Assembly (NCBI RefSeq): GCF_009914755.1
Contig: NC_060941.1
Reading direction: 5' to 3' (one strand)
DNA from: the human T2T-CHM13v2.0 reference genome, Homo sapiens
Length of the DNA: 64,000 nt
Every line of letters starts with the position of its first letter. Within the stretch, counting starts at the first letter, position 1. The notes below the pieces were generated by a model. It was not told where the DNA came from, did no database searches, and saw only the letters and a program-made list of their open reading frames with translations. Both the position numbers and the translations under genes were made by a program. Shown one piece after another: positions 3,524 through 54,290 of this stretch.

Positions 3524-4307
3524 TGATCTGACAATGTGAAGCGTGCAGTCGAGTCCTGGTGTGATGGGGCGCGGGCAGCACCAGCCCGGCCCTGGATGCT
3601 GGCTCCCTGTCCAGCCCTGGCCCCAGCCCCAGGCTTCTGAGCTCTGGGTTCAGGTTCTGCCACTCGTCTTCCCATCTCCCCGCTCAGCTGAGCCTTTGCA
3701 GCTGTGCTCTAGCTCCTACCCACCTTCCAGGAGGGGTGACTGGGGCTGGCGAAGTGGGTTTACCTTGAAGCAACATGGCTCCTTGTGGGCCCCAACAACT
3801 CAGGCTACACCAGGCGTGCAGAACTGGCTGGAGCACCAGCCATCTATGCCTCTGTGCCATGTCCCCCCACCCTCCCAGCTCCGTGCTCTTTGTTGCACTG
3901 GGTCGACCAAGCACAGCTGTGTGGTCACCAGTTCTAACCTTTCTGCTTCCTGGGGTGCATTCTGCTCTGAGGTCACGCTGTGTCCAGCACATGCTGTAAC
4001 CAGGAAAGAAGGGTCCAGGGCTGGCCTCGACCTGAGTCCGAGAGGCAGGCCAGGCAGCACAGATATGCCATGAGCTGCCACCCACCCAGCCTATCCTGGG
4101 GTGGGATGCAGACGACCAGCCTGGACTTGAGGATTGGGACTGGAAAGTCTAGGGCCTTCTGACACCATTGCCACCTGGCTGTAGGCCAAGGCAGGGCTGC
4201 ATCCCGTCCTGGCCCCCGTCCTGCACCCTGGGCCGCTATGCCCTCCACCCACCATGCCCGGGAGCTGCCAGAGCATACAGAGTTGTCCTGGTTTGAAGAA
4301 AGAAATC

Positions 4308-4313
4308 TTTATT
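4308..4313 (-). terminator. RBFOX3 distal polyadenylation signal AATAAA
   Basis: tttatt on the + strand at the end of an AU-rich 3'UTR block. Confidence 0.8.
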
Positions 4314-4729
4314 AATAATCTTAATAATACTGTTAGTTTGAATGGTCACACCTTGGAAGCATACAGAATGGTAAGAAAGGAAGCCCGGGGCTCGGCTGCA
4401 GTCCTGGGGATCTGAGTGAGTCGGGGGGTTGAGCTGCTGCAAGAAAAGGGTCCGGAACAGCAGAGGGGACAGGGGGCTCTGTACAGAGGACAAAGCCGGA
4501 GGCAGGGCGTGGGGCTATGTACAACGGGAATAGAAAAGGAGAATTCCATTTCAATAGCTGATGCTGAATAGAAAGTGAGGTGTATTTTTAAATTTTTGAC
4601 ACTTCATGAGACAGTGGAGCCACGTTGGGAGCCTGTATTTTTTGCTGCTTCCCTACTTCAGTGCTCCCTGCCTCGCCAGGGGTTCCTCCCTGCCACCTGC
4701 TCTGCTCCTGCTCCTCCCACCGGGTAAGC

Positions 4730-4750
4730 CTGGCTGTCCTTGGTGCTGCT
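4730..4750 (-). promoter_or_regulatory. Candidate RE1/NRSE (REST site)
   Basis: AGCAGCACCAAGGACAGCCAG carries both core half-sites (CAGCACC and GGACAGC) with the canonical 2-nt spacer. Confidence 0.55.
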
Positions 4751-6901
4751 CCCGCCACCTGGACACCTGCCTTGGGAGCAGGGAAGGGGCCGGCCCAGGC
4801 TTCCCCATCCCTTGCCCTTCCCATGGGCCCCTGCTCTGGCTGTGCCCGTCCAGGCCCACAGCCACTGTGACTCCCAACCTCGCGATGCAGCCGGGCGCTG
4901 GCCCGTCCCTGGCCCTGGGCGCCCACGGTGGACTGGGCTCACAGGGGAGCGGCAGGGAGGGCTGGGTCCCAGCAGGCAGCACGAGGTCAGCCTTGGTGTA
5001 CACAGGCCCCGGGCCTCCTCCAGAAAGGGAGAGATGGCCAGGAAGAGCAAGTAAGTCCTTGGCCTCAGGGCCCACTTGGCCACACTTGGAGGTGTGAGGA
5101 GTGGCTCCTGGCTGGCTGGGCTTCCTTCGTCCTCCCATGGAGCGCCCCTGAGTCCTGGAGCCACGTCAGCCCTTTCTGTTGGGAGCTGGCCCCGGGGCTA
5201 CTGTTGGACGGCTTCCTCGCCAGGCTGGGGGCACGGGCGGGACTGCCGGGCAGGAGGGAGGTGGGACGCAGGGGACGCGACAGGAGGGTGACGGGGCCCA
5301 GTGGAGCCCCTGGGATGAAAGCTGCCCGCACCCCTCAGCCCCGCCGGCCCCCTGGCACAGCTGGCCACAAAGATCAAGTCTTGCTAGCAGCGCCTGCCTG
5401 CTCAGGCCCGGGCCTGCTCCGCCGCCGCTGGGCTCCACACTGTCTGTCTTGGGAGTTGGGGGCTGGGAAAGGAAGACTGGATGGAAAACAGAGCCCCCCA
5501 CGGGTCCCACAAGGGAGGCCCCTTCCCCTCCAACTCCCCCACTGCCTGAGACGGAGGGGCGTGTTCCCACTGTGCTGCCAGCCAGGACGCGGTGGGGCCG
5601 TCCTGTCCTGGGGCCGCTCCTCGGCGCCCCTGCCGGCGTGCTCCCTCGGTGCGGGCGTGTGGCCAGGACGCGGGACTTGGACTTGGTTGGATGCCTCTTG
5701 GTTTGGTTGGTTTTTTTTTTGTTGCTTGGATCTTAACATCTTTTTTTGTTTTTTTTGTTTTGTGATTTTTTTTGTTTTTTTGTTTTTGCCCTTCATGGTC
5801 CGAGAAGGAAACGGTGGAAGGTTTCACTACAACAGAAACAGAAAGGCAGGACTTGCAGCTTCTCGGGGGAGGCACAGCAGGTGTGAAGGCGACAGGACCA
5901 CGTGGCACGGGGCCCCTGGCCTAAAGTCCTGGCGCCGCCACACCTGCCCCCCAGGTTTCCAGGACCCTCATCTTCCAGGGCTGAGTGTGGGTGGATCCCA
6001 GGATGGGGCCCAGGCAGCCCAGGATGGGAGGAGACACCTGGGGCCCTGAGGAGGAGACAGAGCTGAGCAGGGCAGGGTGAGTGGAGAGGCTGGGCCAGCA
6101 CAGGCTTCGAGGCGGCCTGGATGAGATGGCAGAGGGTGATGGTCTGGCCACGGGAGGTGGGGGAGCCGGGCCCCCCACGGCAAGGGCCTGGTGGGCGGCA
6201 GGACTTCAGCCCTCACTGGTGGGGAACCCACACCCTCCAGCTGGCCTTCCAGCCCCAGGAGCCCAGCCGTGGCACACTCAGAACCTGAGGCTACTTTTCC
6301 CTGTCATGGAGGTACAGATCTGTGTGCCCCAGGCCAGTGCCAGGAAAGGACTGTGCCTGTCTTGGCTGGCTTTTCCTAGGCAGGCCAGCAAGCTGCCCAC
6401 GGCTGTGCTCAAGTGAGGTCCCAGCCAGTGTCTCCCCAGAAGCGCCATGCACCGGGCTGGCCAGTCCCAGGGCTGAGGAAGGAGTGGCCCGCAGGCCACA
6501 GGGCCCTGCCTGCAGTCTCCCTAATGCAGGGAGGGGACTGACCTGGGGCTGACCGGCCTGCGCTCAGGGGAGGGCCTGAGCAAGGGTGCATTCTGCCCCT
6601 CATCAGCTCTCCTGCCTGCTGAGGACCCCTCCTTCCGGAATATACCCCAATAAAGACATTTCGAAGCTTGGGGACAGGGAAAGTAGGCTGTGCCTCCAGG
6701 ACAACCCCCTTGCAAGGCTGGCCTGGCCTTGGCCCTGCGGTGCTAAGGGGCTCCCTGAGGAGCGACCAGGACGTGCCTTTCCACATTTCCACTTTCTGCT
6801 GCAGCAGTGCTAAGGAGTCGCAGAGACTGGCGTGACCACAGCAGTTTGCACACCACGCGACACGCTTGTGACTACGTCGGCAAGAAATATCGTCAATAAA
6901 A

Positions 6902-6907
6902 TTTAAT
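6902..6907 (-). terminator. Candidate proximal poly(A) signal ATTAAA for the NLS-exon isoform
   Basis: ATTAAA in an AU-rich patch, followed about 35-55 nt later by GU-rich gcgtgtcgcgtggtgtgc. Confidence 0.55.
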
Positions 6908-7537
6908 GAAAAATATTAGTTTCAGCTGAATGGGGCGAGGAGGGGCAGTGGCTACTCCTGTGGTTGGCTGGGTGAAGGCCTGCGGGAGCACCCTCAGGCC
7001 GGGGAGACCCACACTGGGTGCCTGGAGCCCCTCCCTCCCTGCGTCAGGGTGCTGGACACTAGGGCCATGGCACGGGGCTGGTCGGGTGGCTTTGGGGGAG
7101 GCCCTGCCAGGCGTTTCTGTTGTTCTGTGCAGCCTGGGAGGCCAGGAAATGTGGCTCTTGCCCTCATAGGGCGCTACCGCTACTCCCAGGTTGGGGGCTG
7201 CCTGGTCTCCTGGCCCAGCCTGGACCCCACGGTGTGCACACCGTACCTGCAATGGCTTGGGTAGTACAACATCAACAAAGTCAAAATAGGAAATCACGGT
7301 TGCAGACATACAGGAAAAACCAGGGTCAAAGACACACACACCAGCACAGGTGGGGTGGGGAGACCAACTGGCTGGAGAGAAATAATCTATAGATTTTAGA
7401 GTTGCAGGGGGCCAGCCGTGCGTGTCGCTGACCGGGAGGGGTGCACTGTCTTCTGGTGGCTGTGCCTGGTTTTGGGCTGTTGGGTTTGGTGTGTAATAGG
7501 CAGTCAGTGTGAATGCTGTTAGGGGCTGGGTCTCTTG

Positions 7538-7582
7538 CTAGTAGGGGGTGAAGCGGCTGTACCCTCCTCGGCAGAGGCTAGC
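7538..7582 (-). CDS. RBFOX3: RBFOX3 alternative terminal coding segment ASLCRGGYSRFTPY* (PY-NLS)
   Basis: Acceptor gatgttgcag|GCT is phase 0, matching the 9386 donor. The peptide matches the RBFOX-family RGGYxRFxPY C-terminus. Confidence 0.88.
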   Translation of the reverse strand, partial: ASLCRGGYSRFTPY

Positions 7583-8731
7583 CTGCAACATCAAAGATGA
7601 AAAACAGCCAATCAGTACCGTCTTTTGGAAGAGGGGAAAAAGCAAAAAGAAAAAAAAAAAGGAAAAACAAAAAGAGAAATAGCCAAGTCTCGATTTCTTT
7701 CCCCCTATATTCCTTGGGGAGAAAGGAGTTGGGTTGTCATGGCAACAGGAAGAGTAGGACCTGCCTCTGACATAGTGGTCTTGGGCCAGTGTGGGGTGCT
7801 CTGGGGTCATGGCCAACAGTGCTTCTAGGTCACAGCTTGAGTTATGTCTGGGTCACTTCTCTGGGCTCAGGCCTGGCCTCTCACTGTCCTTATGCAGAGG
7901 GGGGGTCCCAGCTTGAGCCCCACCTCCTCGCACCCCAGCAGGGTGGCACGGGGCATCTTCAGAGCACTGAGGGACCTCCTGGCGGGTTCCTGGGCCTTGG
8001 CTCAAGAGCCTGGGGCCACTGAAGCCAGCTACGCTGGGAGAGGCAAGCCTGCTGGGCATAGTGTTCAGAGCCTTGCTCTCTGGGGGGGTCTCTGGGTCCT
8101 CCTGGGCCCACCTGAGGCCCAGCCCTGTCCTACTGGGGAGAGCGGGTCCTGGATGCTCCAGCTCTCCCATGTCCTGGGCTGCCTCCAGTCAGGGAAGGCT
8201 CTGAAGGGGCCTCCCACCCTCCCACCACCCAGTTTTCCCAGAAAAGAACAACACAGCAAGTGCAAGAGAAGAAAAATTGGGGAAAAATAGAAAATCTTAA
8301 AAATACAAAGTGAAAACACAAGAGGGAACCCTCCGTGCGTTAATGAAAGCTTTTAGCTTGCAGCTGCACGGAGGGCCCAAGAGCCAGGGTATCACACCTC
8401 CATCCGGGTGGGGCCGCACCAGACCCGCGCCTGTGGCTGCCCACAGCCACCACAGGCTGCTGGGGGTGTCTGAGGCTCGTTAAAAATTGAAAAAAAAAAA
8501 AAAAATTGGAGGGAGTCATCAAAACCAAGAAAGATGGGAAAAATCCATATTGCCTCTGAACCTCCTCCCTCCTCACTCTCCCAAGATGTTTTCATCTTTG
8601 ATGCTGGATGCCAAGCTAGCTAAAACCCGTGTTCACACCCCGGGGCTGGGGCCAGTGGGTACAGGAGGCAGGTGTCTGCTGGAAGCAGCTCTGGGTGCAG
8701 AGTGAGCTGGGCTGCACGTGTCAACAGCTGG

Positions 8732-8732
<1 letters not shown>

Positions 8733-8762
<30 letters not shown>
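8733..8762. repeat. (CA)n microsatellite
   Basis: About 15 CA units. Confidence 0.95.
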
Positions 8763-8765
<3 letters not shown>

Positions 8766-9385
8766 ACACGCCACGCCGCGCACCTCCCCGCCCCGCCCCT
8801 TCCACCCCACAGCCTGAGGGAGGAGGCTGGGGCAGAGCAGGCACTGTTTCCCCAGGACGCCAGGAGCCCCCAGGAAGCCAGGAGCTAGAGCCTGGTGAGA
8901 AGCAACCGGTAACCCACACTCCCCTCTCGGATGCGATGCGAGGGGGCTGCAGCAGTGCGGGTGGGCCGTGGGTATGCGGTGTGGGCAGAAACAGCCCCGG
9001 GGCCTTGGGAGCCTCTGCTGGGAAGGAGAGGCGGCCCTGGTTTGGTTTCTGAGGTTTTCCTGGTGGAAATGGGAATGGAGGGGCCTCAACGGGACTTTAT
9101 TATAGTGAGGGAGCTCAGGGAAACGGATCAGGCACATTGGGGTGCTTTCCAGAGGACCAGATGGTACGGTGGGCTGACCAGCCATTCAACCTGCTTCCCC
9201 GCAACTGAGAGGGCGTGAGGGGCCAGCCCTCCCCTCACCCTAACTCACATCCAGGCCGTGGTCCTTCCAAAGTCTCCGGGACCAAGGCATTGGTCAGAGG
9301 GCTCGGCCTCTCCCCCAAGGGCCTCACCACCCATGCCCAGCTGTTAGGACTGGCACCCAGGGCTGGGCGGGCCTGGGCTCCTTAC

Positions 9386-9464
9386 CATGGTTCCAATGCT
9401 GTAGGTCGCCGCGGGCCCGATGGTGTGATGGTACGGGTCGGCAGCTGCGTAGACTCTGCCGTAA
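9386..9464 (-). CDS. RBFOX3: RBFOX3 exon, 79 nt ((S)YGRVYAAADPYHHTIGPAATYSIGTM)
   Basis: Acceptor ttccctag|, donor ATG|gtaagg. Confidence 0.95.
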
Positions 9465-10447
9465 CTAGGGAAGAGCGTGGGAGGGGGAGTGGGAGGAGGG
9501 TGGGGGAGGGGGGCAGGTGAGGGGCAGCAACGGCCTCCCACCTCCTCCCAGACACTACATGGGCACCCTGTACCGAGGTCCCATCTGCAAGGCACCCTCC
9601 CCTCCTGCAAGGCCTGCAAGGCCTACCCCTCCTTCTTGTTAAGAAGGAAGCTTCTGGAACACAACAGGCAACCCTCTCAATATGCCCACAGTGTGCTGAC
9701 CCTGACGGGGTGGGGGGAGGGGGTGTGTTCCACTCAGTGCTACGTGGAGGGGGATGGTGTCCTCATGGAGCTCGTCTGCAGGGAAAACAAACTTCCACCC
9801 CAAAAAGAATGTGGTAAATACTGGGGAGGGTTTCAAGAGAAGAGAGAGGGTCAACGAGGAGGGACCAGGAACACTGCCCCCAAGAATGTGACACTTGTGT
9901 CCCTCACGACTTTCCCTTCAGCAGTTTGTCTGTGCAGGGAACTCTCAGCTCCTTAGAGAGCAGAGCTGGGCCACGGCACCCTGTACACCACACTTCAGGG
10001 AGATGGAGCCGGGGCTGCCAGGAGGGAGGGGGTACAAGCGGTCCCCAGACCAGAGTGGTGGAGCTCAGCTACCAACAGGCCAGATGTCTGAGGGGAAAGG
10101 CACTAGGCTAGGTTGCTCCAGGAGGAAGCACTCAAGCGTCTGCCTCCAAGACAGACAGCCACTGTGGGCACGGGGCTTGCGGGGGGCGGTGGGGGGACTG
10201 GGAATCAGAGATGCGGTCTCCACCTGGGGTTTCCACAGCCTCCCCATGGGGTAAGCAGGAAGTGACTGAAGTCAGGGGCTCACTGGCTCAAGGGCCACAC
10301 TCAGACCTGCTCCCCTGTCCCGACCCTACTCCCGCCAGGCCTGGAAGAGTGGGTTACGCCTCCTGCCTGTCTGGGCCCAGCTCCCCAGGGATCCTTGTCC
10401 ATCTTCTCCCCACCCTGCTCCAGAACAGTGCTGGCCCCCGGCCTCAC

Positions 10448-10509
10448 CTGTCGCTGTAGGCTGCCGCCGCTGCAGCGGGCTGAGCGTATCTGTAGGCTGC
10501 GTAGCCTCC
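10448..10509 (-). CDS. RBFOX3: RBFOX3 exon, 62 nt (GGYAAYRYAQPAAAAAAYSD)
   Basis: Acceptor ctgcag|GGA, donor AG|gtgagg. Confidence 0.95.
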
Positions 10510-11587
10510 CTGCAGGGTAAGTGGGAGGAGAGAGAGCAGAGGGACTTAGTGGGGCTCCCCAGGGAAAGGCTGAGTGGGGAGAGGAGACAGACCCTGTGCG
10601 GGTGGGGCCCTGGGAGGGACTACAGACCTTCCCAGCCTCCCAGCCTCGGCTGGGTAAGGATTAGGTGGTACCTGGCCTGGGCACCTAGTTCTGGTCTAAC
10701 ACAGGACCGAGGACTGCAGATGGCTAGGTGGCACAGTTCAGGGCGAGGCAGGTCTGCCTGTCCACTCCATTCATTCACTCATTCATTCACACATCCATCT
10801 GTGCACTCCACACACATTAGCGGGTACCCATGACTCATCTGGCTGGGTGCTAGGCCTTGGCAAGGAAGAGGTGCTCACAGACCTGCCACCAGGCCACTGA
10901 GGCCTGACTTGGATGCTGAGGGGCTGGGAGAACCCACAGTGACTCTGGATAGTGTCCTGGACACCAGGAAGGGTCAAGGGTAAAGGGCACAAGAGGACGT
11001 GAGCTCAGATGATGTCCTGGCCTCAAATGGGCAGGTAACTGAATTGTAGGCAGCTGCCCAGGACTGAAGGGTGGCTGGGTACATGGGGTGTGGCCGTCAG
11101 TGAGTCTGAGACAGAGGAAGCAGCACATGTGGCCCCATGAAGGGGGAGAAAGGCCACCGGACCCCATCAAGGGGGGTAGGCCCTGGAGCACAGGCACCCA
11201 GGGGCCCTGCCTCCTGGCCCCTCTTGCAGCCCGTGCTGTGGGTGCCTTAGGGGCTCACTCACTGACCGCAGCGTGGTTAGGGACGTGGCAGAGTCCCACT
11301 GCCCCCATTATATGAGGCCTTGCCCACAGGAAGATGGTTTCAGCTCACAGGGCTGCTGGGCGGCCCATTAACTGCTCCCTTGATGGGTACCAACAACCAA
11401 ACTGTGCCATGCTGGGATTCTCAGGGATGCCATACTCTGGGCAGACGTGGCACCCTCGCCCTCCTGGCTTCAAGGGTGGGATGGGATGGGATGGGAGGAG
11501 CGGGCAGTGAGAGAGGAGACGCCGACTTCTCATTGAGACCCACAGAACGCCTGATCCCACCCTCCCTCCCGGCGGGGCTACACTTAC

Positions 11588-11627
11588 ATAAATCTCAGCA
11601 CCATAAAATCCATCCTGATACACGACC
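11588..11627 (-). CDS. RBFOX3: RBFOX3 40-nt exon core (VVYQDGFYGAEIY; B40-like)
   Basis: Acceptor cttccag|G, donor TAT|gtaagt. Confidence 0.95.
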
Positions 11628-11768
11628 CTGGAAGCAAACGGACAAGAAAGTGGTGGGAACGCTGGAGAGGTGGGGTAGGCCGGCTCCGGTGTCTGCTGAG
11701 GAGGGAGGGGGCACGGTGCCAGCCCCGCCCATGGGACTGGCATTTTAACAAGCGTTTGCTCCAGTGCC
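11628..11768 (-). CDS. RBFOX3: RBFOX3 141-nt (47-aa) alternative 3' splice-site extension ALEQTLVKMPVPWAGLAPCPLPPQQTPEPAYPTSPAFPPLSCPFASR
   Basis: Upstream aaaacag| acceptor exactly 141 nt from the proximal one with an open frame. Matches the known long NeuN isoform. Confidence 0.85.
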
Positions 11769-12226
11769 CTGTTTTGGTATAACAATAGAGTAACACCCTT
11801 GCTGATCAGCAACTTTCTCCCACAAACCCCGGGGCCCATAGCCCACCCGACCCCAGGCAGCTGTGCCCCCCACCCCTTTAGTGATGGAGGGCACCAGACC
11901 CCAGGGAATGGGAGCAGAGAGGGCTCAGAGAAGCCCCTCGCTGACCTCAAGAGTGGACAACGGCCCCATTAAAGCATCCAGACAAGGTTCTGGGGCTCTG
12001 AATGTCCCCCTAAATGCCAGTGACCTCCGCGATGCCCGCCGTGGTGGGGATAGGGGTGAAGATAATGGAGGCAGCTGCAGGGCTGAGTTCTGGGGCTCCC
12101 ACGATCCTCCCCCCCCCCAGGTCTGGAAAGGCTGCCTAGCCCCTCGCACTGCGCAGGGCCTCCCCATTTCCCTCCTCCCCGCCGTCCTACCCCCTCCTCC
12201 ACGCCTCCCCCGGCCCAGGTACTCAC

Positions 12227-12359
12227 GCTCCGTAAGTCGGGATGGGGGGTGGGGGTGGCGCAGCCCGAAATGTATTATACACGGCCCGGCCCCGGCCCCG
12301 AAGATGTGCGCCCCGGTAGGCAACGGCTGTGCCGGTGGTGGGGTAGGGGAACCCCGTCA
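12227..12359 (-). CDS. RBFOX3: RBFOX3 exon, 133 nt ([10 protein letters not shown]...PPPIPTYGA)
   Basis: Acceptor ttcctgcag|, donor GC|gtgagt. Confidence 0.95.
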
Positions 12360-12626
12360 CTGCAGGAAACGGGGCCCGAGACACGTGTGAGAGGCACAAG
12401 GGGACCCACCTGGCACCCCCTCCCCGTACACCTAGCCCCCCCGCGCACCTAGCCCCCAACCCCTCCCCAAGCCCCGCCCCCGGAGCGCTACTCAGTCAAC
12501 ACGGCGACGGGAGGGCGGGGACGGCCCACCTGGCCCCGCCCCTCATGCCCCGCCCCCAGAGCCCCCGGAGCCCCACGGGGCCAAGTAGCTGGTCTCATCC
12601 CATCCCCGCCCCGCCCCAGCTTTTAC

Positions 12627-12680
12627 CTGCATAGAATTCAGGCCCGTAGACTGCGCCGACCACTGGATTTAGCTTCCAGC
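12627..12680 (-). CDS. RBFOX3: RBFOX3 exon, 54 nt (GWKLNPVVGAVYGPEFYA)
   Basis: Acceptor tttgttttag|, donor G|gtaaaa. Confidence 0.95.
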
Positions 12681-13389
12681 CTAAAACAAAGGCACAGAGA
12701 CCTAGTCACTGCCTTCCCCGACCCTTTTCCCACCAAAACGTATGCCTGGGAACCCCAGCGACACCGGTGGAGCCCTTGGGAACATTCCCAGGGCGCCTCC
12801 CCGCGCCGGGCCCCCCTTTCCCACACTGCCCGGACAAGTGCTGAGTTCAAAACACCAGGGTCTACTCCTTCCTGACTCTTCTGCCTGGGGGTCTGCTAGG
12901 ATTCTTTCCCAATTGTGATCCTCCTCAGCCTGCCCCTGAGCAACCCTCACCCCTGGGCGTCATCCCCCGAAGCCTGGGGTACCCACCTCCCAGAAGAGAA
13001 CTGGAGAGGGAAAGTGGAACTTGTTATCTACCCCCCTGAGCACAGCTGGGATGAGGGTTTCTGGAGTCAGACTCAGCACAGCCCCACCATCCGAGCTCCA
13101 GGTGGCCAGAGGCTGCAGGAAAGGCGCTTGGACTCTGCCCATAAGCTCTCCCCACTGCCTGCCAAAGTCCCCGTCCTGCTCCCTCTTCCCCGTGCTGAGT
13201 CCTGCTCTCACTTTCCTCCCGTCCTCATCTTCCCCCAGAGCGGCTGTCCGGGAGGGTGGCCTGGGAGCAGGTCGAGGAGGAAAGGGCATTTGGACTGGGA
13301 ATGATAATAAGGATGGGCTGGTTTTCCTCAACACTGTGTGTGAGCCACACAGACTGTTCGAAACTCACGGGGTCCTCCCTGCCCAGTGA

Positions 13390-13500
13390 GCCACCACACC
13401 CTCCCCATTTTGCAGATGAAGAAACAGCCCTGGAGAGGCACAGCAACCTCCCGTCAGCAGCTGGGGAGTGGCAGAGCCAGGGATCCCAGCCTGTAATCGG
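13390..13500. mobile_element. MIR fragment
   Basis: ccccattttgcagatgaagaaac...ggcagagccaggga MIR core-like sequence. Confidence 0.6.
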
Positions 13501-14059
13501 CATCCCAGCCTCTCCCTTCCTGCAGGTGGGCCAGTCTTCCTCTCCCCGGGGGAACCCAGGAGCAGAGCAAAGACCTGCTCCACCTGGAGGCCTCTGCGGG
13601 GGACACCAGCTGCCTTGCAGTGGGCTCCGGCTCCAGGCATTCCGACAGGTTGGGCAGGAGGGCTTCTTGACGAGGCCCAGCCCCTTACCCCTCCTCAGTG
13701 TACCCAGGTCTTATCTCTACAGCATGCCCCGTGGGCCCGGCTCCTTGTCCCTTTGCACTGGGTGGGGAGGAACAGCAGGGACGAGAGCCCACTGGCCAGC
13801 TGGGGAGATACATCTGGAGAGGGTGGCAGTGGGCCCAGGCCATGTGTGAACCCCTGACCCAGATTCTAACAACCCCACTGCAGGGCAGGCAGACTGGAGG
13901 CAGTGAGGACGGAGGGTCGGGGTATGTTCCTCCCTCTGGCCAAGTCTTCACCCCACCCCGCATCCCCGGCCCACCATCACACAACCTTGTGTCTGGACGC
14001 CATTGCTGGGACTTTGGAATCTTCCAAAAAGATAAATCCCAGGTTAGGAAGGAAGAAAC

Positions 14060-14419
<360 letters not shown>

Positions 14420-22799: not shown

Positions 22800-23075
22800 G
22801 CACCAGGGTACAGGAGAGTCCCTCGGTGGCGACAGGCACAGGTGGTGGGTGCACGCTCCAGCTCCCGCGGGGTGCCCTGGAGGGGTTCTCACTGTCCACA
22901 CTTCCTCCAACAATTTAAGCTCAGCTGCCCATGGGAACAGCAGGCTGACAATGTGCCTTTTATTGGCTTCCTTCGCCTTCCCGCCTCAATTCCATGCTGC
23001 CCCTTAGGGGTTTTGGGAGATCATCTCCCAAATACACCCTGTGCATTTGAATCTTTGGCTCTGGGCCTCCTGACA
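22800..23075 (+). mobile_element. Degenerate ERVL-type LTR fragment (LTR16-like)
   Basis: ccttttattggcttcc...gatcatctcccaaata...gaatctttggctctgggcctc resembles the LTR16 3' end. Confidence 0.45.
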
Positions 23076-25927
23076 CTCCCAGTGGACAGCTGGAGACCAC
23101 ACACGGAGAACCCCTCCTCAGAGGCCATGTGGCTTCTGGGACAGGACGCCAGCCGAAGGTAGGAGGGTCTTGGCTCCAGCCGTCTGGATCCTTTCTGGAG
23201 CGGCCGTAGAGGAGACTGGGGTCCCTTAGAGGCCTACACGGCAGCCGGTACAAATGGAAGGCTGGTAGCATGGTCTCCCGTGTGGCCTGCGGAGCAGAGG
23301 CAGCCAGCCTGCGAGCAAGAGGAGGAAAGCCAAGAAGAGAGGCTCCAGAGAGCCATTCCCACGCATCTCCAGCTAGGCGAAGCACCTGGCTGCTGAAGCC
23401 ACTTTCCGGAGGGCATCTGTCGCGGGCAACCAAAGGAGTGCTGAGTTAGGACGGTGAGTGGGGAGCCTGGGGTCACAGGGCTGGAGGCCTCGGCCCACGG
23501 CAAAGGAAATGGAGCCAGGGAGGCAGAGCCGTGCCAAGGTCACACTACAGCTAAGTGGCCACAGCTTGGTCCCTCGACTCCTGTCTGAGTGGCTGTCCGG
23601 CTGTCGCCGCCCCCAGCACGGCCACCCTGGTTGTCCTTTCTGGAAGGACAGGCTGCTCCCCTGCATTTCCGCATGTAGCCAGAAAGCCTCTGACCAGGCT
23701 CCAGGGCAGCAGGTGCCGCTAGGTGACCAGAGGGGAAGTCACCACTTCCTGGGCTGCGCAGGGTGGTGGAGGACACAGCCTCCCCCGTACCACAGCTTCT
23801 TCCCTGGCGACAGCCCCTGGCACTGGCAGTGGGGCAGGCTGGGAGTGGGGTCTCAAGGGCTGTAGGGCTGTGGAGCACACGTGTCCACGTTCCTGATGCA
23901 GCTCTGTCCCCTGCGTTGAACAGCGAGGATGCAGCACACACCCCACAGCGTGGGAACCGCTGTCCCGATGCTCACCTGGGCATGCGCTGCAGGACCTGTC
24001 TCAGCAGACGCGCCATGTGGTATGCTGTCCCAATTCCGACAAGCATGTGTTCTGAGCTGTACGTGTTCCCAAGGTGTGAGGCTCCGGGTGGATCCTGCAT
24101 CTCCCTCAGGACCCCAAGAGGTGGAAAATGGCCATGGCTCTCGGAGGGCATGAGCCCCCAGGCTTGGGCAAGCTGGGCGGCTGCTCCTTGGGGTTCCCTG
24201 ACATGTGCCACCCCCATCAGTGGGGGCTGAGCTTTGGCACGGAGGCATCTGTGGTGGGCACAGCTGGCAGGGCCAGGAGGGTGGATGACAGGCCTCCGGA
24301 GACTCCTGGTCTGGCTGGCATCACGTCCCCAGTGACGGGCAATGCAGGGCAGCTGACTCTGGCTCGACAGGGGTATGCGGGAGGCTCCTCCATCCAAGCC
24401 TGGGGAACTGGAGATGCCCAGCAGCCCAGTTTCCCAGTTCTGCTGCCATCCTCCTTGGTCCCAAGTTTTCTTGCAGAAAGCAAGCCTATGCTAGACCTCC
24501 GGAGGGGACGACCTTACCCCTGAACCAAGGCGAGACCGTCCAAACATCCACCGATCTTTATGGAGGTCTGAACCCCACCCTCCCATTGGACAGGCGTGGG
24601 TCTTTCCTCCTCGGTGGACAGGGATGTGCCTGTGCCCTCTGCTGCTCTTGGGTACAGGTGACTGAGTCATCCCAGATTCAGGAATCCAGCCTGGAGAGGG
24701 GCACACAGCTCTGGCCTCTGAGCAGCAGAGGGCGATGGTGGGAACCAGCCCCGCGCCCACCCACAGGCGCTGGGGCATCCACCCCAAAGTCCTAAAGGGG
24801 AGCAGCCGAGGATGAGGCGGGAGGAAGGGGGTGATGGGGTGTGAGTGGGAGGAGCCATGAGTGGGGCCAGGACACAGGTGAGGAAGAAGCCATTCTATCC
24901 CTGCTCAGCCCCGGGCAGAGGCTAAGTGGGTTCAATGGCTGTGAAACCGTCAGGTGTGCAGGGAAGCCCTCGCATGACTGCACACGGACTGCCCCAGGCC
25001 GGGGGATGGGGGCCTTCCCACACTGACTGTAGCGGTCCAGCAGCCTCCACCGCCTTTCCAGCTTTCTCAGGGGCTTTCTTTCCCCCACTCAAAAAAAAAA
25101 AAAAAGCCGTCTTTGCTTCTTGTTCTCAAATGCAGGGAAAGAGAAAAGGACAGGACTGCCCTTCCCTCCCGACTGGGCTGGGGGTCCTGCTTCTGCATCC
25201 TTCCCCAGCTCTGTCTTGGCCCGGCCATTATGGACACCTCCCCAGCCCACTCAAGTTCGGGGTGGGGGTCTAGTTGCCACACAGCACCTCCCACTCTCCA
25301 CATCCTCTGAGGAGCCTGCACCCACTTTCGCCTGGGGCCCCCAAGCTTGGCACGGAGACAGACAAAGGGAATGAGCCCCAGGCAGGGTCTGGTAGACCTA
25401 GGCAGACCCTGGACAGCAGGTGGGACCCGGTGGCTGTTGTTGGCACGGAACCAAGCTGTGCTGCTGTGGCACCACATGAACCGGTTTTTGGAAATCCCTT
25501 CCTCGACAGCGCCGTCTCCCTTCGTTCCTCCAAAGACCTCCTAGGCACTCAGGCAAGGACCTGCCTTGGTGAGCCGCTGGTGGGCAGCCAGTCAGCCTTG
25601 GAGGAGGGGTTCTCTGCGTGTGGTCTCAACCTATCCACTGGGAGTGTCTGCTTCAGAGCCTGGTGGCACTGGTGGCCCCTCCTTGGGTGAAGCTGTTGGC
25701 TCCCACGTGGCATTTGAAGAACACAGGATTTCAAGCCCCTCCTGATCTGGCCTCTGCACCGTGGCACGGGCAGCCGACTGACGCCTCATCCACTCCCACC
25801 TCCCAGCCTGGGTAGGGGCATCTCAGCTGAGCCTCACTGTGGCGTTGCTTTGGGGACCAGCGCCTCCTCTCTTCCGCCCTTCTCAGGCCAGTGGCCAGCC
25901 ACGGCCTACCCCTCACCCCTTCCATAA

Positions 25928-53099: not shown

Positions 53100-54290
53100 G
53101 TGTGTCACCGAGCCTGCGAGGCACACTCCCACCGCAGGAGCAACCTGTACATGCCTGCACACTCACTGCACACATCCGTGTGCAACACGCACACTCAGAC
53201 CGTGCATGCCTCTACGTACCTGTATTCCCCATGTGCATACACACAGTACACACTCGCACACTGTGTGGACTCACCCGAGCACGCTCGTGTGTACCATGTC
53301 ACACGCAGGTGTGAACACCCGCACGCACACACTCCACACATACACAGTGCACACTCTCATACTGTGAACACTCACTCCACACTCTCACACTGTGAACACT
53401 CACTCCCAAGCTCATGCACATACACACCACGTCACAGTCATGTCCAGGTAATACGTACAGCCCACACTGCATCCACACGCATATACACTGTGCATGCTCA
53501 CTCCTGAGCACACACAACCAAAACACACATTACACCTGTATGGTGATGCAACCCCTCACCCACACACACATAGCACGTGTTCACACCTCCTCACCCACAC
53601 ACGCACATACACAGCACATGCATTCACACCCTCACCCATACACATGGACACAGCACATGCGTTCATGCCCCCCTCACCCACACACGCACACACACAGCAC
53701 ATGCATTCACACCCCCTCACCCATACATATGCACACGCACATGTTCATGCCCCCCTCACCCACACATGCACACACAGCACATGCGTTCACACCCCCTCAC
53801 CCACACACGCATGCACACAGCACGTGTTCACACCACCATCCACAAACATGCACACAGCACATGCCTTCACGCCCCCTTACCCACACACATGCGTTCACAC
53901 CCCCTCACCCACACACATGCACACAGCACACGCATTCACGCCCCCTCTCACCCACACACGCAGGCATACGGCAATGCATTCACACCCTCACCCGCACACG
54001 CACACAGCACATGCATTCACACCCCCCTCAGCCCCACACATGCACACAGCACATGCGTTCACACCCCCTCACACACATGCACACAGCACATGCGTTCATG
54101 CCCTCACCCACACACGCACGCACACAGCACGTGTTCACACCCCTCACCCACACACACATGCACACAAGCACATGTTCACACCCACTCTCACCCACACACG
54201 CACAGCACATGCGTTCACGGTCCTGCCTTGGCATGCTCACACCTGGGCTCACACCCATGTCCACACACATTCCAGTTCACACACTCACCT
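53100..54290. repeat. CA-rich low-complexity region/VNTR (about 40-bp unit in 53560-54220)
   Basis: cacacagcacatgc(a/g)ttcacaccccctcacccacacacatg units. Confidence 0.92.

What the first reader, a model, noticed from the sequence alone, without database searches (positions are those of the whole stretch)
7577..8620. Long-range RNA duplex that would sequester the 3' splice site of the RBFOX3 NLS exon (candidate nuclear/cytoplasmic NeuN switch)
Seen: on the pre-mRNA, the non-repetitive intronic element 8576-8620 reads GCUAGCUUG-GCAUC-CAGCAUCAAAGAUGAAAA-CAUC-UUGGGAGAG. It pairs with the acceptor region about 1 kb downstream in three helices. (1) 8612-8620 pairs with 7577-7585 (CAG|GCUAGC; 9 bp, one G-U), covering the AG and the first 6 exon nt. 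(2) After a 5-nt bulge, 8589-8606 pairs with 7586-7603 (UUUUCAUCUUUGAUGUUG; 18 bp, one G-U), covering the pyrimidine tract. (3) 8576-8584 pairs with 7625-7633 (9 bp, one G-U), leaving the putative branch sequence UACUGAU looped out. Established: this exon encodes the RBFOX PY-NLS, and skipping to 5826 gives an immediate stop and an NLS-less protein. Inference: duplex formation blocks U2AF access and biases splicing to the cytoplasmic isoform. It may also be an ADAR substrate that includes the acceptor A. I am not aware of this being described for RBFOX3.
Basis: partly seen in the sequence, partly recalled or inferred. Interest (0 to 1): 0.9.

Follow-up and report, generated by a model that had tools for sequence, protein, structure and literature searches.

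The report
Intron element pairing with RBFOX3 acceptor
A single-copy stretch inside the last RBFOX3 intron can base-pair with, and is predicted to bury, the splice acceptor of the short exon that gives NeuN its nuclear-import signal, which is a plausible and testable brake on the nuclear isoform but has not been shown to be conserved or to work.

Summary
The letters and coordinates are right. On the RBFOX3 (minus-strand) pre-mRNA, 8612-8620 pairs with 7577-7585 (9 bp, covering the AG and 6 exon nt). After a 5-nt bulge, 8589-8606 pairs with 7586-7603 (18 bp, covering the pyrimidine tract).

These two helices appear in every minimum-free-energy fold I made, from 1.1 to 3.7 kb. In the whole-intron ensemble their probabilities are 0.76 and 0.88. 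Of 31 sites folded the same way, this acceptor is the most buried. Shuffling the upstream arm frees it. No shuffle of the intron (0 of 20,000) gave an 18-bp helix. Both arms are single copy.

Against it:
- The third helix (8576-8584 x 7625-7633) is predicted at p about 0.015 and is no better than chance.
- The duplex energy (-37.5 kcal/mol) is ordinary for this GC-rich locus.
- RBFOX1 and RBFOX2 have no counterpart.
- A stronger inverted repeat lies elsewhere in the gene.
- No vertebrate genome, editing table or RNA-contact data could be consulted, so conservation and function are untested.

My reading is that this is a candidate splice-site-masking long-range duplex, a known kind of element, that favours the distal acceptor and so the NLS-less isoform. 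The ADAR idea is pure speculation.

The parts
8612..8620 (-). Upstream arm, helix 1 half (GCUAGCUUG). It pairs with the AG and the first 6 exon nt.
   Evidence: Read. In the MFE 9/9. Mean pair probability 0.76 in the whole-intron ensemble.
8607..8611 (-). 5-nt bulge (GCAUC) on the upstream arm, between helices 1 and 2.
   Evidence: unpaired in the MFE.
8587..8606 (-). Upstream arm, helix 2 half. 8589-8606 forms the 18-bp helix. 8587-8588 adds 2 bp across a 1-nt bulge in the MFE.
   Evidence: Mean p 0.88. 0 of 20,000 shuffles reach this length.
7577..7585 (-). Downstream arm, helix 1 half: C-AG (7585-7583) and exon nt 7582-7577 (GCUAGC).
   Evidence: Unpaired probability is 0.006 in wild type against 0.39-0.49 after shuffling the upstream arm.
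7586..7606 (-). Downstream arm, helix 2 half. This is the pyrimidine tract between the branch site and the AG.
   Evidence: Unpaired probability is 0.039 in wild type against 0.39-0.45 after arm shuffles.
7611..7617 (-). Candidate branch sequence UACUGAU. Branch A is at 7612, 29 nt from the G of the AG. It stays accessible.
   Evidence: Unpaired probability about 0.8 with or without the arm. The branch assignment rests on the consensus only (inference).
8576..8584 (-). It is complementary to 7625-7633 but is predicted to pair elsewhere (8569-8585 with 7713-7728 in the MFE).
   Evidence: p about 0.015, 0/9 in the MFE; alternative partner; flank helices are common.
7625..7633 (-). In the MFE it sits in a small local hairpin around the branch region.
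6888..7582 (-). Proximal alternative last exon. The CDS 7538-7582 encodes ASLCRGGYSRFTPY*, the second half of the hPY-NLS. ATTAAA lies at 6902-6907.
   Evidence: Annotation: 14 of 58 RBFOX3 mRNAs use it. Translation, sequence, PMC3126832 passages.
4286..5826 (-). Distal alternative last exon. Its only coding nt are the stop UGA at 5824-5826, which gives the NLS-less protein.
   Evidence: 44 of 58 RBFOX3 mRNAs use it, including the RefSeq Select transcript. Sequence.
9386..9464 (-). Upstream exon whose 5' splice site is joined to either acceptor. The intron to 7582 is 1803 nt, and the upstream arm starts 765 nt into it.
7637..7685 (-). Long U-rich tract upstream of the branch site. It is a possible platform for pyrimidine-binding regulators, which bears on the rival explanation.
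   Evidence: family D1.

Best explanation
The last RBFOX3 intron carries a 34-nt single-copy element (8587-8620), 765 nt downstream of the 5' splice site. It is complementary to the 3' splice site of the NLS-coding proximal last exon. The element is transcribed about 1 kb before the acceptor and has no dominant partner of its own. It can therefore capture the acceptor as the acceptor emerges. The result is a bipartite helix of 9 bp, a 5-nt bulge, and 18 (+2) bp.

This helix buries the AG, the first six exon nucleotides and the whole pyrimidine tract, and leaves the branch sequence free. While it stands, U2AF cannot bind. That delays or lowers use of 7582, so the distal acceptor at 5826, 1757 nt further on, wins. 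The distal acceptor gives the stop-only C-terminus without the PY half of the NLS, which is the mainly cytoplasmic NeuN.

Shown: the complementarity, its uniqueness in the genome, and its predicted dominance in the folding ensemble. Inferred: formation in vivo, U2AF exclusion, and any effect on isoform ratio. Helix 3 is not part of the model.
For: - H1 and H2 are in the MFE of every context folded: 1121 nt, 1201 and 2065 nt, 1351 nt and 3715 nt (27 of 27 pairs).
- Ensemble probabilities with the whole intron are 0.76 for H1 and 0.88 for H2.
- Shuffling only the upstream arm raises the unpaired probability of the AG region from 0.006 to 0.39-0.49, and of the tract from 0.039 to 0.39-0.45, in 5 of 5 shuffles.
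- With identical 1201-nt contexts, this acceptor has the lowest mean unpaired probability of 31 sites: 0.042. The other 12 RBFOX3 acceptors give 0.114-0.678 and 18 random sites give 0.236-0.548.
- In the nascent transcript before the acceptor exists, no partner of the upstream arm exceeds p 0.42. Its local fold is unexceptional, z = 0.00.
- 0 of 20,000 intron shuffles reach the helix length.
- Both arms are single copy.
- RefSeq Select and 44 of 58 mRNAs use the distal acceptor. This fits a handicapped proximal site but is weak evidence.
- In the catalogue of conserved complementary regions, such regions are depleted at active splice sites and enriched at inactive ones. 43.2% of those overlapping pyrimidine tracts also cover the acceptor (PMC8052449, passages).
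Against: - I have no evidence on conservation or covariation. No vertebrate genome was available.
- RBFOX1 and RBFOX2 have no comparable complement within 6 kb upstream of the homologous acceptor. The best are 13-14 bp, with 3-9 G-U pairs in RBFOX1 and 4 in RBFOX2.
- The duplex energy is ordinary for this locus.
- A sliding-window accessibility run gave 0.31 for the acceptor, and 29% of windows were lower. Only about a quarter of its 1400-nt windows can hold both arms, so that run dilutes a 1044-nt pair.
- Long-range helices occur in this gene without any splice site, such as the 63-nt, 83% inverted repeat at 23072-23134 / 25586-25648.
- The + strand centroid of the same fragment also shows a long-range pairing between its two ends (I did not map it to H1/H2 coordinates), so strand specificity is weak.
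- Thermodynamic prediction of 1-kb pairs in protein-coated nascent RNA is unreliable (general knowledge).
- The scan covers many windows, so a post-hoc coincidence cannot be excluded.
Confidence: 0.42

Rival explanations
1. The complementarity is incidental. It arose by chance or from a small old inverted duplication, and has no measurable effect in vivo. The choice between 7582 and 5826 is set by proteins on the U-rich tract, by the weak purine-interrupted pyrimidine tract, by RBFOX autoregulation through GCAUG, and by competition between polyadenylation and splicing.
For: - Energy and gapped-score statistics are at background level.
- Helix 3 is at chance level.
- The paralogues regulate their own C-terminal choice without such a duplex.
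- Another, stronger inverted repeat in the gene touches no splice site. Two 18-bp helices per 64 kb give roughly a 3% chance that one overlaps any of the 13 acceptors here (my arithmetic).
- A long U tract lies at 7637-7685. Sense GCAUG motifs lie at 9332-9336 and 6446-6450.
- No paper found describes the structure.
Against: - H1 directly abuts H2, and exactly the AG plus the tract is covered.
- 0 of 20,000 shuffles reach the helix length.
- The folding model gives 27 of 27 pairs in a 3.7-kb context.
- A 27-bp helix whose complement is already present when the splice site is made should form to some extent (inference).
Confidence: 0.4
2. The duplex is mainly an ADAR substrate. Editing of the acceptor A7584 (AG to IG) would destroy the site. 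Editing of A7579, which sits in a UAG context in the second codon (AGC, Ser), would recode the extension.
For: - It is a 27-bp interrupted duplex with 18 contiguous pairs.
- Complementary regions below -30 kcal/mol are strongly enriched for A-to-I sites, odds ratio 13.2 (PMC8052449).
- Exonic editing sites commonly depend on an intronic complementary sequence (PMC1920255, passages).
- ADAR2 editing its own intronic 3' splice site through a distant intronic complement is recalled, not seen here.
Against: - No editing data could be consulted, and one search returned nothing specific to this intron.
- The acceptor A is in an A-U pair with a 5' C, which is not a favoured context (recalled preference).
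- The duplex is short and AU-rich.
Confidence: 0.08
3. The structure helps the proximal exon rather than hindering it. It would do so by looping out about 1 kb of intron, bringing the 5' splice site nearer, or by influencing use of the proximal poly(A) site. Helicases would open the acceptor.
For: - Looping by long-range pairs can promote exon use, and exons after structured introns are more included when polymerase is slowed (PMC8052449).
- The pair removes 985 nt from the effective path.
Against: The pairing covers the AG and the pyrimidine tract themselves. In the same catalogue this arrangement is associated with inactive sites.
Confidence: 0.06

Closest known systems
Pairs of conserved complementary regions (PCCRs), long-range pre-mRNA structures in human genes (Kalmykova et al. 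2021, PMC8052449; passages seen)
   Same: There are two intronic/exon-border arms about 1 kb apart in one pre-mRNA. The energy is well below the -15 kcal/mol class. One arm covers a pyrimidine tract and its acceptor, which that paper links to weakly used sites.
   Different: Conservation, the defining criterion, could not be tested. I could not see the catalogue (supplement and track hub). RBFOX3 is not mentioned in its main text.
ATE1 competing long-range structures controlling mutually exclusive exons (PMC7797038; search listing and abstract start only)
   Same: Intronic complementary elements decide between two alternative splicing outcomes.
   Different: ATE1 uses several conserved competing elements, validated by mutagenesis. 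Here there is one predicted pair, with no validation. The only candidate competitor seen was a weak direct quasi-repeat at 8530-8547.
[quoted passage not shown] 2009 was seen)
   Same: The choice is between alternative 3' ends or terminal exons and is influenced by long-range pairing.
   Different: It is a different organism and architecture. I did not read the primary paper.
RBFOX1 nuclear/cytoplasmic isoforms (-FAPY versus -TALVP C-termini; described in PMC3126832)
   Same: The outcome is the same: splicing decides whether the PY end of the NLS is present.
   Different: RBFOX1 achieves this with a different exon arrangement. Its homologous acceptor has no upstream complement within 6 kb.
ADAR2 self-editing at an intronic 3' splice site through a distant intronic complement (recalled; no call)
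   Same: It is a kilobase-range intronic duplex that contains a 3' splice-site dinucleotide.
   Different: There, editing creates a splice site and is documented. Here editing is unobserved and would destroy the site.

Membership tests
Long-range splice-site-masking RNA structure (PCCR type) | Two complementary regions in the same pre-mRNA, within about 10 kb, forming a stable duplex (-15 kcal/mol or below) | tested here: met
   H1+H2 give -37.5 kcal/mol by RNAduplex. The isolated arms give -50.5 by cofold. The arms are 985 nt apart.
Long-range splice-site-masking RNA structure (PCCR type) | The duplex is predicted to form against all competitors in the native context and to cover a splicing signal | tested here: met
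   p is 0.76 and 0.88 with the whole intron. 27 of 27 pairs are in the 3.7-kb MFE. This acceptor is the most buried of 31 sites. Helix 3 fails.
Long-range splice-site-masking RNA structure (PCCR type) | Both arms evolutionarily conserved, ideally with compensatory substitutions | not testable with these tools
   No vertebrate genomes are held. The human paralogues RBFOX1 and RBFOX2 lack a counterpart, which shows only that the element is not older than the paralogue split.
Long-range splice-site-masking RNA structure (PCCR type) | Disruption changes splicing and compensatory mutation restores it | not testable with these tools
   Only in-silico arm shuffles were possible.
Site-selective ADAR substrate with an intronic complementary sequence | Documented A-to-I change within the duplex | not testable with these tools
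   No editing table was available. One search gave no paper on editing in this intron. Supplements were closed.
Site-selective ADAR substrate with an intronic complementary sequence | An imperfect duplex of about 20 bp or more containing the target adenosine | tested here: inconclusive
   There are 27 pairs interrupted by a 5-nt bulge. The acceptor A lies in the 9-bp part next to the bulge.
Repeat-derived inverted repeat (for example an inverted Alu pair) | The arms belong to an interspersed repeat family | tested here: not met
   There is no masked repeat at 3541-14081. Each arm hits only itself in the genome at E <= 0.001. No Rfam match at the arms.
Ancestral RBFOX-family regulatory element | Present at the homologous acceptor of RBFOX1 and RBFOX2 | tested here: not met
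   The intron sequence upstream of the acceptor is not alike in the three genes. The longest complements within 6 kb are 13-14 bp, with 3-9 G-U pairs in RBFOX1 and 4 in RBFOX2.

The most novel reading that the evidence does not exclude
RBFOX3 sets the nuclear/cytoplasmic ratio of NeuN with an RNA-structure gate. A pre-made intronic decoy captures the acceptor of the NLS exon as it emerges. Elongation rate, helicases, arm-binding proteins or ADAR then decide how often the gate opens. Because RBFOX1 and RBFOX2 lack it, this would be a lineage-specific addition to an ancient splicing switch. It could be addressed with one antisense oligonucleotide against 8587-8620.
Probability: 0.2. Interest if true: 0.65.

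Novelty: new member of a known kind. Interest (0 to 1): 0.4.

Why it matters
NeuN is the standard neuronal marker and a splicing regulator. Its 14-aa C-terminal extension decides whether it is nuclear or cytoplasmic (PMC3126832). In the searches made here I found no paper on what controls that choice. A defined 34-nt element that masks the acceptor would give a concrete cis-mechanism. It would also give a simple handle, an antisense block of the arm, to shift NeuN between compartments and so test what the cytoplasmic form does. If the pairing has no effect, the case is still a useful caution. Long perfect helices at splice sites arise in real genomes far more often than shuffles suggest, and duplex energy does not separate them from background in GC-rich loci.

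Tried and rejected
- RNAduplex energy as a test of significance gave nothing. The 71-nt acceptor region prefers another, loop-rich partner near 8880 (-58.1), and shuffled introns do as well. The 31-nt core value of -37.5 is matched or beaten by 215 of 700 random windows.
- A gapped Smith-Waterman style complementarity scan of the whole window was also uninformative.
- Sliding-window accessibility (window 1400, span 1150, 4 kb only) took 268 s. It dilutes a 1044-nt pair, so I did not extend it. Its result, 0.31 with 29% of windows lower, counts mildly against the finding.
- The repeat or transposon origin was rejected. There is no masked repeat, both arms are single copy, and I saw no matching flanking duplication by eye.
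- An ancestral RBFOX element was rejected.
- A known RNA family was rejected. The only hit in 5700-9500 is a weak mir-1908-like match at 5871-5952 on the + strand, E 0.64, far below threshold.
- Helix 3 was rejected as part of the structure.
- A matching long-range duplex at the distal acceptor (5826-5848 x 6774-6805) appeared in one context but is absent from the 3.7-kb MFE (0 of 23 pairs). I do not build on it.
- Strand asymmetry was a weak test. The + strand MFE lacks the pair but its centroid shows a long-range pairing between the two ends of the fragment, which I did not map to coordinates.
- Literature searches, and look-ups, found no description of this structure. One search found no paper at all. 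Supplementary tables, including the catalogue of conserved complementary regions, could not be opened.

Full report
**What is in the sequence**

RBFOX3 is on the minus strand. The acceptor region reads ...UACUGAUUGGCUGUUUUUCAUCUUUGAUGUUGCAG|GCUAGC..., with the AG at 7584-7583 and the exon starting at 7582.

All three complementarities exist exactly as given:
- H1: 8620-8612 with 7577-7585, 9 bp, one G-U.
- H2: 8606-8589 with 7586-7603, 18 bp, one G-U, 15 contiguous Watson-Crick pairs.
- H3: 8584-8576 with 7625-7633, 9 bp, one G-U.

The repeat finder lists the core as the best inverted repeat of 6800-9500, with 985 nt between the arms.

**Gene context**

The annotation shows two alternative last exons, both joined to the 5' splice site of exon 9386-9464.
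- The proximal exon is 6888-7582. Its coding part translates to ASLCRGGYSRFTPY*. It has an ATTAAA at 6902-6907.
- The distal exon is 4286-5826. Its only coding bases are the stop at 5824-5826.
- 14 of 58 RBFOX3 mRNAs use the proximal exon. 44 of 58, including RefSeq Select, use the distal exon.

Dredge & Jensen 2011 (PMC3126832, passages) report three things. The 14-aa extension arises by alternative 3' splice-site use. [quoted passage not shown] The variant without it is mainly cytoplasmic, while the matching variant with it is nuclear.

**Is the element a repeat or a known RNA?**

No. There is no masked repeat between 3541 and 14081. Each arm, as a 121-nt query, finds only itself in the human reference. 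The Rfam scan of 5700-9500 gives nothing at the arms.

**Does the folding model predict the duplex?**

H1 and H2 are in the minimum-free-energy structure of every context tried:
- 1121 nt.
- 1201 and 2065 nt.
- 1351 nt.
- 3715 nt, reaching past the distal acceptor (H1 9/9, H2 18/18).

With the whole intron, mean pair probabilities are 0.76 for H1 and 0.88 for H2. H3 is not predicted: p is about 0.015 and it is 0/9 in the MFE. Its upstream half pairs instead with 7713-7728 in the MFE.

Shuffling only 8576-8620 raises the unpaired probability of the AG region from 0.006 to 0.39-0.49, and of the pyrimidine tract from 0.039 to 0.39-0.45, in 5 of 5 shuffles. The branch sequence stays about 0.8 unpaired throughout.

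Before the acceptor is transcribed, the upstream arm has no dominant partner. The best partner probability is 0.42 or less, and its local fold is ordinary, z = 0.00. The complement therefore exists, uncommitted, when the splice site emerges. This order favours capture (inference; an older experimental literature on hairpins and splice sites is recalled, not read here).

**Controls**

Folded in the same 1201-nt frame, this acceptor has the lowest mean unpaired probability of 31 sites, 0.042:
- The distal acceptor 5826 gives 0.114.
- The other 11 RBFOX3 acceptors give 0.253-0.678.
- 18 random sites give 0.236-0.548.

In 20,000 dinucleotide shuffles of the intron, the longest helix with the 31-nt acceptor core never reached the observed length. 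The maximum was 13 Watson-Crick pairs against 15 observed, and 16 bp with one G-U (once) against 18 observed.

**Results against the finding**

- By duplex energy the pair is ordinary. The 71-nt acceptor region finds a better, loop-rich partner elsewhere (-58.1), and shuffled introns average -55.4.
- The H1+H2 energy of -37.5 kcal/mol is equalled or beaten by 215 of 700 random 31-nt windows.
- A gapped complementarity score is near the window mean.
- A sliding-window accessibility run gives 0.31 for the acceptor. That method can hold both arms in only about a quarter of its windows.
- Real sequence has far more long helices than shuffles. Two 18-bp, one-G-U helices lie within 3 kb on the sense strand of this window. 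One of them belongs to a 63-nt, 83% inverted repeat at 23072-23134 / 25586-25648 that touches no splice site.
- From that empirical rate, I estimate about a 3% chance that such a helix overlaps one of the 13 acceptors here. The abutting H1 lowers this by roughly a thousand-fold (my arithmetic). Against that, the scan examined many windows.
- Flanking helices with loose bulges are common (28 of 114), so H3 adds nothing.
- The + strand centroid of the same fragment also shows a long-range pairing between its two ends (not mapped to H1/H2 coordinates), so strand specificity is weak.

**Relatives**

At the homologous acceptors of RBFOX1 and RBFOX2 the exon start is alike, but the intron upstream is not. 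The best upstream complements within 6 kb are 13-14 bp, with 3-9 G-U pairs in RBFOX1 and 4 in RBFOX2. The element is therefore specific to RBFOX3 and arose after the paralogues split.

**Literature**

Searches found no description of this structure.
- The main text of the conserved-complementary-region catalogue does not mention RBFOX3. Two follow-up papers have no occurrence of the name either. Their supplements and track hub were not visible and may list the pair.
- That catalogue reports that complementary regions covering splice sites are enriched at weakly used sites.
- It also reports that 43.2% of those on pyrimidine tracts cover the acceptor too.
- Pairs below -30 kcal/mol are strongly enriched for editing sites.

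**Verdict**

Those two helices are robustly predicted to bury the acceptor of the NLS exon. I think the most likely mechanism is a splice-site-masking long-range duplex that favours the distal, NLS-less end (confidence 0.42). An incidental complementarity without effect is almost as likely (0.40). ADAR involvement is unsupported speculation (0.08). If real, this is a new member of a known kind. Its value is that it makes the control of NeuN localisation directly testable.

Noticed in passing
window 5826-5848 and 6774-6805 (minus strand): In a 1201-nt context the distal acceptor is also predicted to pair about 950 nt upstream (13 bp with 3 G-U, plus 10 bp with 2 G-U). That makes it the second most buried of 31 sites (unpaired 0.114). 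The pairing is absent from the 3.7-kb MFE (0 of 23 pairs).
   Followed up: partly
window 23072-23134 and 25586-25648: A 63-nt, 83% complementary inverted repeat, 2451 nt apart, inside the intron between exons 21747 and 30453. It is stronger than the finding and is not at any annotated splice site or masked repeat.
   Followed up: partly
window 53551-54218: A degenerate minisatellite (periods of about 41 and 80 nt). It puts about 25 GCAUG motifs, the RBFOX binding word, on the sense strand of an RBFOX3 intron.
   Followed up: partly
window 9332-9336 and 6446-6450 (minus strand): Sense GCAUG motifs, the only one in the last intron (7583-9385) and the only one between the proximal exon end and the distal acceptor. 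One is about 50 nt downstream of the 5' splice site of exon 9386-9464. The other is between the proximal exon end (6888) and the distal acceptor. They could allow RBFOX autoregulation of the same choice.
   Followed up: no
window 8733-8762 (minus strand): A (UG)15 run in the pre-mRNA, about 115 nt 5' of the upstream arm. UG repeats are the recalled binding sequence of TDP-43.
   Followed up: no
window 7637-7685 and 8490-8505 (minus strand): A long U-rich tract just upstream of the candidate branch site, and a U16 run in mid-intron. These are possible sites for pyrimidine-binding splicing regulators.
   Followed up: no
window 8530-8547 versus 7593-7610: A direct quasi-repeat (14 of 18 identical) of the pyrimidine-tract core lies about 45 nt 3' of the upstream arm (family D3). 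It could act as a local decoy for the arm, but the local fold does not use it.
   Followed up: partly
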